A DNA stretch of 64,000 nucleotides from the human T2T-CHM13v2.0 reference genome, Homo sapiens. This document shows, piece by piece, positions 23,154 to 32,522 of the stretch. The first letter of the stretch is position 1. The number at the start of each line of letters is the position of its first letter. The stretch lies in assembly GCF_009914755.1 (NCBI RefSeq), contig NC_060929.1; one strand, given 5' to 3'. A program made the translations under genes and the position numbers. The notes beneath the pieces were generated by a model. That model worked only from the letters and a program-made list of their open reading frames with translations, made no database searches and was not told the DNA's origin.

Positions 23154-23341
23154 AGAGCATCATGAAGAGTGCATTGAGATATGCCAGACACTGGTGGCTC
23201 ATGAGAGAAACAAGGGCTTTGCTAACAGTTGTCTTCCTAACTATGAGGCCTCCTGCAATATGAGACATTGTAGTGTTGGTAGAAGGGTCTGCTTTCTTAG
23301 ACATTTTTGCGGTACTAACATAGATATAAAAACTAACACAC

Positions 23342-23658
<317 letters not shown>

Positions 23659-24159
23659 CTAACACACATAGTCAGATGTGGCATACAAAAGAGAAAAGTA
23701 ATTTTTGTAAATATTTAGGAAAAAAGAATAAATAATAAGTGGCAAACATCAGTAGTTTTCATCAATGTGCCATCTGTGTATAGATACGATGTCTTTGACT
23801 GTCTGCTGGTCACAGAAAGCCCTCTACACAAGGAAGGCAGGGGATGGCCTTGAACAGTGCTCCTGAGTGACAGCTCTGGAATAGGTGGGAGAAGGCACAG
23901 TGCATACCCAGCGAAGAAATCTGTTCACTCTGTCAGTTACCAAAAGCCAAAGAAAAACTTCCTCCATAGGAAATGATTTCCCCATTCCATTCTTGACAAG
24001 CAAGAGCTAACAAAAGAAAGAGTCCCAAAAGAATATGGGACTTTTGGGAGAGTAGAGGAGATCTCATTTACGAAGAGGAGAGAACATCCACGTGCTGATA
24101 GCAGCAGCTAATAGAGCTGCCTGATCTGGTGCTGGCTGGGCAAACCAGCGCTAAAGGCA

Positions 24160-24425: not shown

Positions 24426-25247
24426 GAAGGTGTGGGTCTGTCTCCTGTAAGTGCTACCTGTCAGAGACTATTCTCTGAGAATGCTGAGTCACATAATTTG
24501 GTCAGAATTTAATGAAACTGCAGGGACAGAGATAGGGAATGTGCATTTCTCTTCCCTATTTAATTCTGCCTCACCAACAAACTGCTGGTAAGGAAAAAAA
24601 AAATCACACAAAATATATTATTTGAATTGGTCTGTGCCACTAACCAATGCTGTTGTCCATTCCTACTGTCCCCTGGTTCTTGTTAATAAGATAACATTCT
24701 GTACTCCTACTCATAGAGGGCACTATTTTCTTGTCAGTTCATGCTGTTGCAGACAGTTGGTAATTCCAACTACCAAAATACCATAATTTCATCAGTGAAT
24801 TAAGCCGAGAAATAGTTTTGAATATTACAGAGTATATAGTAAGATCTTCCATAAACCTGAGTTGACTAATTTCTAGCATCTCTTGACCTTCAATTTCACT
24901 AATACTGTTTAGCTAGTTCTTGAGCTATTTTTATCTGAATAATGTAAATTGAGAAATTGATTTACTTTGTTTTTCAGGAAATATTTTAATTAATTTATAA
25001 TATTTCTCTGCTTTAGACATTTAGAAATATTTATTTTACTTACAGGATAGATGTTGTGGCATATTTAAAAGGATAAAAATGTACTTCAGAAAAGTTCACA
25101 AATTTAATTCTATATATAAAGAGATTTGTTTTTTCCTAAGGTGCTCCACTATTAAATGAAATATAACTTAAAAAAAATCAGTCCTAATATCAGCAAACTG
25201 TGAACTGACCTCAAAGTTAATATTTACACTCATCAGAAGCTAAATGG

Positions 25248-25581
<334 letters not shown>

Positions 25582-27649
25582 TTAATTGCAGGTGAGCCTG
25601 TATTGCCATTTTAAAAGATTTTTCCAAGTCTGTCTTGACATAGCATTCATTTTGTATTTCATAAATGAGAAGACTGTGAAGATTAAATCAAAAAAGCTAA
25701 CAGTGCTGGTCAGGAGCTAGAAAACTTGGGGTGGAGCTTGAGGAAAGAAGACTATGAGAATGATTTTTAAAACATCATCTATATCTTAGAGCATAAAATG
25801 GGGTAAAGATAAACTATTAACTGACACAGGGTGCAAAGCACCACAAAGCAGCACAAATAGCTTTATAGCTTCTGTAAATCCTAAGGATCTTCCTAAGACT
25901 CACATCCCTCTACACCCCTTCAAATCAGATTATTCATTTCCTTTTCCCTCTCTGCTGTACAAGTGACAACAGCTACAAAATGCATCACCCAAAGGGAAGG
26001 TCGTTAAAAAGGCCTGAAGAATATAAAGTGTCAAGCAGTTTGGCTTTAACTGTGGCCTTTGTCTAGCAGCACATAGAGTGTTGTCTTTTTGTTTTCTTCA
26101 TTTTTAAGGTTGTAGTATAATATATTACAGCCCAAGACCAACAGTTACAGCTTCCAGAGGTAGCTACTCCGTGATTAAGAGAACTCATTTACAGTATATT
26201 CCATATTTTTTATATAAAAAAATTAAACTGTACTTGCCTTATTCCACATTCAAATGGTTAATATATAACAATTATGGATATGACATAAATAGCCCTACCA
26301 GAGGCAGGTCAGAATATATATGACAGTAGGGAGATGTGAAAAACACAGAGAAAGAGAAGGGAAGAGCCAATTTATGCAAAAAGAGAAATCACACCTTCTG
26401 CTATTACTACATACGGTCTTGGAAATATAATATTTTATTAAAGTCAAATGAAGCATACTTTGTTAGAGTTTAGCCAGTTCAACTACAAAGAGTAAATACA
26501 AATCTAAAGTAAATATGCTTGCTGACCAAAGCATCCAATGACAATCTTATTTGAAATCATACCACATATTCGTATGACTGGAAGCCAACTTGCATAGCGC
26601 TCTTTATACGCAAAGACTGATTTTATGCTGGGCACAGGAAAGAAGAGAGAGTGGAAAGGCTGGAAGAGAGGTATGTCACATCAACCAACCTCCTAAACCC
26701 AGATGGTTTTCATCATCATAAATCATTTCCCCAAAGGCAGCAACCCATTTCATTTGCTAACATTGCTCTTGAACAACTTGCCTGGCAAGTAGCTTTCTCA
26801 TTAACTTTCAAAGACATCCTATCCATGTCATTCATCTCCTGCGAATATACGAATATAACATTTCCATTACCTTGACTTTTAATTTCCCCTTCAAAATAGG
26901 AATTTTATGAATTGATTTGACAGGTCATATAAGTCTCTTTATACTATTCATAAAACTTGCCTTCCAATATGCTTTGAAATTAAGATTATAAGCCAGTTCC
27001 ATATTAACATACTAATGCCTACCCAAAATTATGCTGGAGACAGCTGGCTAGGCACACCAAGCCTAATTAAAGAGCTAATATTTTTACAAAGGGATTAAAA
27101 GTTACTTGAGATTGAATAATACATCTTAATGACTTAAAAAAAAGAACTTTGGACTAGAAATGCTCTCAACATAGGAGGAAAGTAAGGGCTAAAAGCAGAT
27201 TGTAGGAAAAAGATTACTTTCTTACTTACATAAGATCCTCTCTCTTTAATCCCATCAGACACTATAAACAGGAGGAAGTTTAATCTAGCAATAAGAGCAT
27301 GACTTTTATTGTCAGACAAAGCTAGGTTCATGGCCTTTAATATAGTTATACCCAGTTTGAATCATTCTGCTTTCTCATGAAAAAAAAAAAAAAAAAAGAG
27401 AAAATATGGAAAGAAAGAATGACCTAGAAAAAAGTCTAGAATACAATACATACTGAAAAAAGACTGTTTCAGGTCTTTTGCTTTCTCACATAAACTAGCT
27501 CAGTAAACCAAAATACTCTCATAGTTTCAACTATACTCATGCCTCTCAAATATATAGTTTAGACTCTAATTTCTAATCAAAGCTTTAATTCTTAATTTCG
27601 AGTGGTCAGAATAGAGAAATCACATAACTTATCACATTATTACAATAAT

Positions 27650-28460
27650 GTTTACAATTCACCTGGGAATTTTAAAATGATATATACACTAATAATTATA
27701 TCTAAAGCCTGTACTTAATTATGTCATTTAGAAGACTGTAGACAACACCAAGCCACTCCATATAATCCACCAAAGGTACTTTTCCTTCCTATAAAAAATG
27801 ATCAGGAAGATTTGATCAATAATTCTTTTATTTTTCAAGGAGGAGAATTTCTTGTTTGTTGTGGCTACCATCTCAAAATGCCTTATAGTGTCTCTACTTC
27901 AACAAGAACATCCCTGTACCAATGATTTTCAATGTCCAGATTCCCAGATGTTATTATTCCTGACAATGAATCTGCATTTGTTTCAGATGCATTTAAGAAA
28001 TTTGTGAAGCTAGAGCTCATCTAACCTGTCATCATTACTCTTCATCACCCTCAAGCAAATGGTCAGGCTGAAAGAATGATGCAGACCACTAAGGAAGCCA
28101 TAAAGTAAACTATCAGAAGAAAGTGACTGAGGAGATTTGCCCAGCTTTTCATCACTCAACATATCAGTCCAAGTGGGACAACAGAAGTCAGTTCTCCTGA
28201 ATAAAAAAGGCAGCAACATTGCAACTGTGCCTTTGACAGTTCCCATATAAAGCTTAGCTTAGAATTTATAGACAAACCAGAATGTACTCTGGGAATAGTA
28301 CTCATTCTTAATTCATTTTTCTAGAAGAATTTGTGTTGACTAGAATTTTAAATGAAACAGAAAGGGGCATGTTCCTATTTAACTAAAATCACGGTGTGTG
28401 TGTTATTACAAGGGCTAGACTGTAGATGGAACTAAGTGGCATAACACTAACAAGAGCAAT
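27650..28460 (+). mobile_element. Fossil Ty3/Gypsy-type integrase coding sequence (multiple stops and frameshifts)
   Basis: The frame from 27938 reads RFPDVIIPDNESAFVSDAFKKFVKLELI*PVIITLHHPQANGQAERMMQTTKEAIK*TIRRK*LRRFAQLFITQHISPSGTTEVSSPE. D (27962) and E (28070) are separated by exactly 35 codons. Upstream fragments read HLGI, DCRQHQATPYNPPK and FQG/FLFVVATISKCLIV; a downstream fragment reads TVDGTKWH. Confidence 0.85.
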
Positions 28461-31832: not shown

Positions 31833-32522
31833 AGGCTATTATTAAAAAGTTAAAAAACAACAGATACTGGCAGGATTGTGGAGGAAATTGACTGCTTATA
31901 CGCTGTTGGTGGACATGTAAATTACTTCAGCCACTGTGAAAAGTAGTTTGGAGATTTCTCAAAGAACTTAAAACAGAGGTACCATTCAACCTAGCAATCC
32001 CATTACTGGGTATATGCCCAAAGAATATAAATCATTCCACCAAAAAGACACATGCACTCATATGTTCATCTCCACACTGTTCACAATAGCAAAGACATGA
32101 AACCCACCCTATCAGTGGTGGTTTGGATAAAGAAAATGTGGTACAAATACACCATGAAATACTATGCAGCCATAAAAAAGAGCAAAATCATGTCCTCTGC
32201 AGCAACATGGATGCAACTGGAGGCCATAATCCTAAGCAAATTAATGCTGGAACATAAAACCAAATACCACACGCTCTCACTTGTAAGTGGGAGCTAAACA
32301 CCGAGTACACATGGACGGAAACATGGGAACAACAGATACTGCAGACTACTAGAAGGGGAAGGGAGGGAGGAGAGTTTGGGTGGAAAAACTACTTATTGGA
32401 TGCTATGCTCACTATCTGGGTGACAGAGTCCATACTCCAAATCTCAGCATCATACAATATACCCATGTAACAAACCTGCACATGTGCCCCCTGTATCTAA
32501 AATAAAAGTTAAAATTAAAACA
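31833..32522 (+). mobile_element. Old primate L1 3' end (L1PB/L1PA15-16 class)
   Basis: ORF2 C-terminal and 3' UTR motifs ('agcaatcccattactgggtat', 'gcagcaacatggatgcaactggaggccat', 'catgtaacaaacctgcacatgt...aataaaagtt'). Confidence 0.9.

What the first reader, a model, noticed from the sequence alone, without database searches (positions are those of the whole stretch)
27650..28460. Fossil Ty3/Gypsy integrase missed by the ORF track
Seen: manual translation gives collinear integrase motifs. These are a zinc-finger remnant (HLGI...NYI*..PVLN...CRQHQATPYNPPK, cf. HPGI..SYVWWPGLD..CxxCQ...PPK), FQG/FLFVVATISKCLIV (cf. FQG..FLIVVDAYSKWLEV), and ~88 frameshift-free codons with PDN...HPQANGQAERMMQTTKEAIK at exact D(35)E spacing. 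They continue as RFAQLFITQHISPSGTTEVS (cf. RLARFL.TQH.TP..TTG.SPAEL) and a C-terminal TVDGTKWH. Known: Gypsy elements are extinct in eutherians and survive as a few domesticated genes and rare degraded copies. Inference: the motifs resemble Mag-like ('K02A2.6-like') Gypsy integrases of non-mammalian vertebrates more than ERV integrases. This would be a very old, possibly unannotated relic, and its legibility may reflect constraint, for example exaptation as non-coding DNA.
Basis: partly seen in the sequence, partly recalled or inferred. Interest (0 to 1): 0.7.

Follow-up and report, generated by a model that had tools for sequence, protein, structure and literature searches.

The report
Dead Mag-type integrase fossil in PDE4D
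An intron of the human PDE4D gene holds the broken integrase gene of an ancient jumping element most like a reptile lineage; it is one of at least 12 decayed human copies, likely inserted before placental mammals diversified and likely without function, and human fossils of this general kind are already described.

Summary
Window 27,615-28,290 (+, antisense to PDE4D, intronic) is a broken Ty3/Gypsy integrase. The core frame 27,929-28,204 has D and E 35 residues apart and four stops. It hits 989 proteins at E<=1e-3, with Ty3 best in the PDB. No gag, RT, RNase H or LTR survives in the window, and the claimed C-terminal motif is unsupported.

It is one of at least 12 dispersed human copies. They form a star, lie 0.29-0.55 substitutions/site from their source and show no codon-position bias, as expected of decay after a burst. 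Fourteen short ORFs from unnamed records look like orthologues; 7 end at the same codon as a human stop, so the gene was likely dead before those species split. The nearest other relatives are a loggerhead-turtle relic and, by eye, an alligator Mag/Jule element.

Exaptation is not shown. This is the most legible copy, but not significantly the slowest. Human Gypsy protein fossils missed by RepeatMasker are already catalogued (PMC9004415). Verdict: real, a new member of a known kind, modest interest.

The parts
27615..28290 (+). Extent of the relic: integrase portion of a Mag-type Ty3/Gypsy pol gene, antisense in a PDE4D intron
   Evidence: DNA similarity to sister human copies starts at 27615 (L006) and ends near 28272-28291 (L065, L030); no other pol or gag hit in the 64 kb window
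27633..27677 (+). Remnant of the His half of the HHCC zinc finger (weak)
   Evidence: Aligns to the HPGI region of 3 of 5 intact relatives; summed score reached by 3 of 60 shuffles
27728..27790 (+). Remnant of the Cys half of the zinc finger and PPK linker, in another frame from the His half; second Cys not retained
   Evidence: 2 of 100 shuffles reach the score; collinear in the alignment to P0005
27833..27890 (+). Start of the catalytic core (FQG, then FLFVVATISK), broken by frameshifts; first Asp of DDE not retained
   Evidence: Six-frame translation, frameshift-aware alignments, coordinates
27929..28204 (+). Frameshift-free catalytic core with D(35)E (27962, 28070) and stops at 28022, 28106, 28124 and 28202
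   Evidence: stop at 28106 matched by the ends of 7 of 14 orthologue-like ORFs
28364..28442 (+). Possible C-terminal integrase remnant (GACSY ... TVDGTKWH); unsupported
   Evidence: 22 of 25 shuffles reach the protein score; no DNA match here to sister copy L091, which has a look-alike motif

Best explanation
This is the broken, non-coding integrase remnant of a Ty3/Gypsy element, likely an LTR retrotransposon of the Mag/Jule lineage, which likely inserted antisense into a PDE4D intron before placental mammals diversified and has likely decayed since without a function of its own. Shown: integrase homology, the stops and frameshifts, no gag, RT or LTR nearby, and at least 11 dispersed sister copies. 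Inferred: a Mag-type element copied itself by reverse transcription and integrated with this DDE integrase in one burst in an early mammalian ancestor. This copy then lost everything but about 0.7 kb of pol and was already dead in the ancestor of the species whose orthologues were found. It is the most readable copy mainly because about 90 codons escaped indels.
For: Homology. Family: 7 of 7 family-like loci match the window DNA at E<=7e-7, while 0 of 4 ERV controls match below E 0.7; four more copies were confirmed. Burst and decay: internal branches are 7.6% of tree length; mismatch by codon position is 0.463/0.460/0.464; branches are 0.29-0.55 substitutions/site. Dead early: 14 of 54 hits match the human DNA, several also in its off-frames. 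7 of 14 end at the codon before the human stop at 28106 and 1 before the stop at 28124; D is kept in 12 of 14 and E in 8 of 11 that reach it. LTR type: six sister copies share a 3' block, followed in three by a purine run; the turtle relative carries RNase H upstream. Lineage: in a quick tree the human copies, orthologue-like rows and turtle rows lie on one side of a branch (support 94) and ERVs are a separate starred group. By eye the closest labelled element is 'Alligator mag', Mag/Jule subclade, in PMC3670739 file S2.
Against: Orthologue-like ORFs are 63-84% identical to the human core, which simulates to only about 0.1-0.2 substitutions/site. That is below recalled neutral distances between mammalian orders (0.25-0.4), if they come from other orders. 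The window copy ranks first of 12 against four independent relatives and has a short branch among the human copies in the protein tree. Frith 2022 finds that old fossils of this kind are often constrained. The species behind the orthologue-like ORFs are unknown, orthology rests on protein only, and the Mag/Jule label is by eye, not by tree.
Confidence: 0.65

Rival explanations
1. Same origin, but the DNA was exapted as a conserved non-coding element, for example an intronic enhancer of PDE4D, and evolves at about half the neutral rate; the insertion could then be older than mammals.
For: High identity to orthologue-like ORFs; best-preserved of 12 copies; shortest DNA branch, 0.29; lies in a very large intron, as do the constrained fossils of PMC9004415.
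Against: The branch interval 0.22-0.35 overlaps L003, L065, L070 and L092, and is shortest in only 62% of bootstraps. Between orthologue-like ORFs the core is no more conserved than the upstream part in 8 of 10 pairs. Against human, the upstream part is only 47-65% identical. The ORFs were selected for matching the human core. The supplied annotation lists no RefSeq functional element here.
Confidence: 0.25
2. A relic of a Ginger/GIN-type DNA transposon, or a processed pseudogene of a domesticated integrase gene (GIN1, KRBA2, SCAND3, NYNRIN), rather than an LTR retrotransposon.
For: Only integrase is present in the window, and no LTR could be aligned. GIN1, KRBA2 and SCAND3 were not in the tree.
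Against: The long top relatives that were scanned are gag-RT-RNase H-integrase polyproteins (4 of 11 proteins). No intact human frame outranks the relic copies with the core or turtle query. The copies radiate as a star with no protein constraint.
Confidence: 0.05
3. A still-coding or exonised integrase fragment (a domesticated gene missed by annotation).
For: About 90 codons without frameshift and D(35)E retained.
Against: Four stops in the core; the longest stop-free run inside it is 32 codons. Stops are shared with orthologue-like ORFs and the catalytic residues vary among them. No exon is annotated in the window.
Confidence: 0.02

Closest known systems
Mag/Jule subclade of Ty3/Gypsy (Metaviridae), 'Alligator mag' AKHW01014103 in PMC3670739 supplementary file S2
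   Same: By eye the same integrase motifs in the same order, including features shared with the human copies such as QATHHNP, NLIQTVTIAP and the GDW..RLARFL..QH stretch; a turtle relic of the same type is the closest non-orthologous database hit.
   Different: The reptile element is a full gag-pol; the human locus is a 0.7 kb broken integrase fragment. That paper's Table S2 marks Mag as absent, not as remains, in Prototheria and Theria, though its text allows rare fragmented Metaviridae remains.
Human Gypsy protein fossils of Frith 2022 (PMC9004415)
   Same: Frameshifted Gypsy protein remnants in large introns and gene deserts. The paper lists 83 pre-amniote Gypsy fossils, only 3 of them found by RepeatMasker, plus 4 pre-tetrapod ones.
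   Different: PDE4D is not named in the text or supplement. The online catalogue could not be seen, so this locus may or may not be in it. The passages read give no clade or family assignment.
Repbase human Gypsy internal sequences MamGyp-int and X1_LR to X4_LR (PMC5753468, Table 4); MamGypsy2 (name seen in search listings only)
   Same: Known degraded Gypsy internal portions in the human genome.
   Different: Sequences not held, so membership is untested. MamGyp-int gave rise to PNMA2, and PNMA genes are traced to the Barthez clade, whose integrases look unlike this one, so MamGyp-int is the less likely match.
Domesticated integrase genes GIN1, GIN2, KRBA2, SCAND3, NYNRIN
   Same: Integrase-derived mammalian sequence.
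   Different: Those are intact genes traced to Gmr1/Ginger or ERV sources; this is broken, multi-copy and Mag-like.

Membership tests
Ty3/Gypsy (Metaviridae) integrase | rve-type catalytic core with D(35)E spacing | tested here: met
   35 residues between D 27962 and E 28070; Ty3-G best PDB hit, E 8.8e-4; 989 hits. First Asp not retained.
Ty3/Gypsy (Metaviridae) integrase | N-terminal HHCC zinc finger upstream of the core | tested here: inconclusive
   Collinear remnants; 3 of 60 and 2 of 100 shuffles reach the scores. Sister copy L091 aligns through this part.
Ty3/Gypsy LTR retrotransposon | gag-PR-RT-RNase H-IN order in one element | tested here: not met
   Not retained at this locus: 89 relatives of 250 aa or more hit only 27542-28201 in the window. 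Present in intact relatives. Only 1.5 kb upstream was held for sister copies.
Ty3/Gypsy LTR retrotransposon | Polypurine tract and LTRs | tested here: inconclusive
   None in the window. Six sister copies share a 3' block, followed in three by a purine run, but the DNA beyond aligns poorly and found no further copies.
Interspersed repeat family | Dispersed, mutually similar copies | tested here: met
   12 loci on chr2, 5, 6, 8, 10, 13 and X, 41-62% identical over aligned columns, star-like; a lower bound.
Mag clade, Mag/Jule subclade | Phylogenetic grouping (RT/RNase H) with labelled Mag references | not testable with these tools
   No RT survives here and no labelled reference was in the tree; the assignment is by eye against PMC3670739 file S2.
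Endogenous retrovirus (ERV1/ERVL) | Groups with ERV integrases, or shares DNA similarity with them | tested here: not met
   ERV rows form a separate starred group (98) in the quick tree; one 20-aa ERV row fell among the copies as noise. 0 of 4 ERV loci match the window DNA below E 0.7.
MamGyp-int / MamGypsy2 / X1-X4_LR | Match to the curated family model | not testable with these tools
   No Dfam, Repbase or RepeatMasker track is held.
Domesticated integrase gene | Open frame under purifying selection | tested here: not met
   Stops and frameshifts, shared with orthologue-like ORFs; no codon-position bias among the copies.
Exapted conserved non-coding element | Substitution rate below neutral across named species; regulatory activity | tested here: inconclusive
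   Hints; not significant; species unknown; no activity data.

The most novel reading that the evidence does not exclude
An uncatalogued family of Mag/Jule retrotransposons, a lineage listed as absent from mammals, had a last burst on the mammalian stem and left at least 12 integrase fossils in the human genome. The PDE4D copy is the best-preserved and has been kept by selection as a regulatory element.
Probability: 0.2. Interest if true: 0.55.

Novelty: new member of a known kind. Interest (0 to 1): 0.3.

Why it matters
It gives direct genomic evidence that a Mag-type Gypsy lineage was copying itself in ancestors of mammals, something inferred from reptiles but tabulated as absent from mammalian genomes in PMC3670739. 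The 12 loci are datable markers: their presence or absence in marsupials, monotremes and reptiles would bracket when this lineage died out. If the PDE4D copy proves constrained, it would add a retroelement-derived regulatory candidate in a drug-target gene. The general phenomenon is already published, so the gain is a lineage label and a family, not a new kind of element.

Tried and rejected
Nothing found: word-seeded search of longer proteins with the core (0 of 21 candidates); viral contigs (0 of 9 stretches); phage records (4 weak IS-transposase hits at E 0.2); DNA searches of the human genome with the locus or a sister 3' end (self only; too insensitive for 55-65% identity).

Uninformative: the Integrase_H2C2 genome search listed 150 of 990 candidates, none of them this locus. 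One genome search ran into an Alu in the query. The full-length relative P0060 showed no RT hit above 26% identity under a strict first look (a floor). The bacterial promoter scan does not apply. Direct repeats at 18-38 kb were Alu-like or low-complexity, with no LTR pair.

Rows dropped: of 29 non-self loci, 22 were ERV-like and 7 kept. Of 5 new loci, L066 and L069 were dropped as non-matching and L067 as scoring far below the others.

Rejected: the C-terminal motif as evidence; the ERV origin; the Caretta relic as the orthologue (its record is 353 Mb long; from recall the PDE4D region lies on a smaller turtle chromosome; untested); the NCBI mask as evidence of 'unannotated' (it covers only 12% of the window). 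The careful protein tree did not finish, so the quick tree is cited.

Full report
OBSERVATION. Six-frame translation and a coordinate check place every quoted motif on the + strand, in order, antisense to PDE4D and inside an intron according to the supplied annotation. The core frame 27929-28204 has D at 27962 and E at 28070, 35 residues apart, and stops at 28022, 28106, 28124 and 28202. With X at the stops it hits Pfam rve_3 weakly (E 0.01, under the cut-off), Ty3-G Gag-Pol best among 13 PDB matches (E 8.8e-4), and 989 of 1.84 billion representatives at E<=1e-3, 24 at E<=1e-10. Against intact relative P0005 one frame aligns over 27728-28201, while other relatives place frameshifts near 27890; the first catalytic Asp is not retained. 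The zinc-finger halves are marginal (3 of 60 and 2 of 100 shuffles) and the C-terminal motif is unsupported (22 of 25).

WHAT ELSE IS IN THE WINDOW. Eighty-nine relatives of 250 aa or more, several of them full gag-pol, hit only 27542-28201; the best hit elsewhere in the 64 kb was E 0.02. No LTR pair was found, and the 3' block of the sister copies is absent here. The locus is an isolated integrase fragment, about 27615-28290 by DNA similarity.

A FAMILY. Searching the human genome with the core gave 77 matches among 100 scored candidates. Of 29 non-self loci fetched, 7 looked family-like; all 7 match the window DNA at E<=7e-7, against 0 of 4 ERV controls below E 0.7. A second query added 2 confirmed copies of 5 new loci. 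The turtle relative added 2 more, one of them (L091, chr2:206.05 Mb) aligning from the zinc finger to the C-terminus. That makes 12 copies, a lower bound because only the best candidates are scored. Over 368 columns the copies form a star (internal branches 7.6% of tree length), lie 0.29-0.55 substitutions/site from the centre, and differ equally at the three codon positions (0.463, 0.460, 0.464). This fits a burst from one source followed by decay with no protein constraint; misalignment could dilute a weak codon signal. Six copies share a 3' block, followed in three by a purine run, as expected before a 3' LTR, but the LTR itself could not be established.

ORTHOLOGUES. Fourteen of 54 hits among 6,382 candidates are short ORFs from unnamed records, 63-84% identical to the human core. 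Six of them also match 43-80 codons upstream at 47-65%, partly in frames that are off-frame for the integrase. The human genome has no copy that close, so I infer they are the same locus in other mammals. Seven of 14 end at the codon before the human stop at 28106, across at least four lineages, and one before the stop at 28124; I could not see the DNA to confirm these ends are stops. D is kept in 12 of 14 and E in 8 of the 11 that reach it. The gene was therefore likely dead before these species split.

LINEAGE. The closest non-orthologous relative, P0009, is 95% identical to a protein named from Caretta caretta; the next three named hits are insect 'K02A2.6-like' proteins. The atlas puts intact relative P0015 among eukaryotic rve + H2C2 clusters. 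In a quick tree of 58 rows the human copies, orthologue-like rows and turtle rows lie on one side of a branch with support 94 (not starred), and ERV rows form a starred group; one 20-aa ERV row fell among the copies, and the careful search did not finish. PMC3670739 (passages, section 14, supplementary file S2 part 6 and Table S2 read) prints reptile Metaviridae by clade. By eye the human family matches 'Alligator mag' of the Mag/Jule subclade much better than the Barthez, Gmr1, Cigr2, chromovirus, new Mag or SURL passages I saw. Table S2 marks Mag as absent from mammals.

AGE. From recalled neutral branch lengths (human to placental root about 0.17, to therian root about 0.4, to amniote root about 0.6; no call), 0.3-0.55 points to the early therian or mammalian stem if neutral, and older if the surviving copies are slow.

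CONSTRAINT. For: this copy ranks first in the genome with the turtle query (70.9 bits against 46.7) and first of 12 against four relatives, and identities to the orthologue-like ORFs simulate to about 0.1-0.2 substitutions/site. Against: its DNA branch (0.29; 0.22-0.35) overlaps four others and is shortest in 62% of 300 bootstraps; between orthologue-like ORFs the core is not more conserved than the upstream part in 8 of 10 pairs; the species are unknown; and both the locus and the ORFs were selected for legibility. Inconclusive.

WHAT IS KNOWN. PMC5753468 (passages) lists human Gypsy internals MamGyp-int and X1-X4_LR. PMC9004415 (passages, part 2 of the text, section 10, supplement searched) catalogued 546,821 human TE protein fossils by frameshift alignment, among them 83 pre-amniote Gypsy fossils mostly missed by RepeatMasker; its online catalogue could hold this locus. 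Also seen, as passages only: 10.1101/2023.02.09.527862, PMC3424704, PMC11011659 and PMC3500645 (no mention of Gypsy). I found no paper on this locus or on a human Mag family in the listings. The library lacks most subscription papers and Repbase Reports, and bioRxiv supplements are closed.

VERDICT. A real, dead, Mag-type Gypsy integrase fossil: the most legible of a small ancient human family, most likely decaying without function (0.65), possibly exapted (0.25). New member of a known kind; interest 0.3.

Noticed in passing
L091 (G000:C2:206046300-206047900, - strand): Sister copy that aligns over nearly the whole integrase, zinc finger to C-terminus, with many frameshifts, plus the shared 3' block and a purine run; the most complete copy seen.
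   Followed up: partly
L003, L004, L006, L020, L030, L091, about 300-900 bases downstream of the core: A shared block of about 150-200 bases at the 3' end of the element; possible polypurine tract and LTR start behind it in L003, L030 and L091.
   Followed up: partly
L067 (G000:C3:85544538-85544633, +): Short stretch resembling the family's post-core motif, but scoring far below the 12 copies; possible 13th copy, not counted.
   Followed up: partly
window 31834-32329: Strong DNA match (E 5e-72) to an L1-like 3' end held in L030 (L1 label recalled from its translation); only partly covered by the supplied mask, which shows that mask is incomplete.
   Followed up: no
window 23331-23671 and 25232-25609: Two Alu-like copies on the + strand upstream of the relic.
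   Followed up: no
P0154 and P0155 (unnamed records): Two orthologue-like ORFs 97% alike, of which one ends at the shared stop position and the other runs on to the next shared stop, so the first stop is not universal.
   Followed up: no
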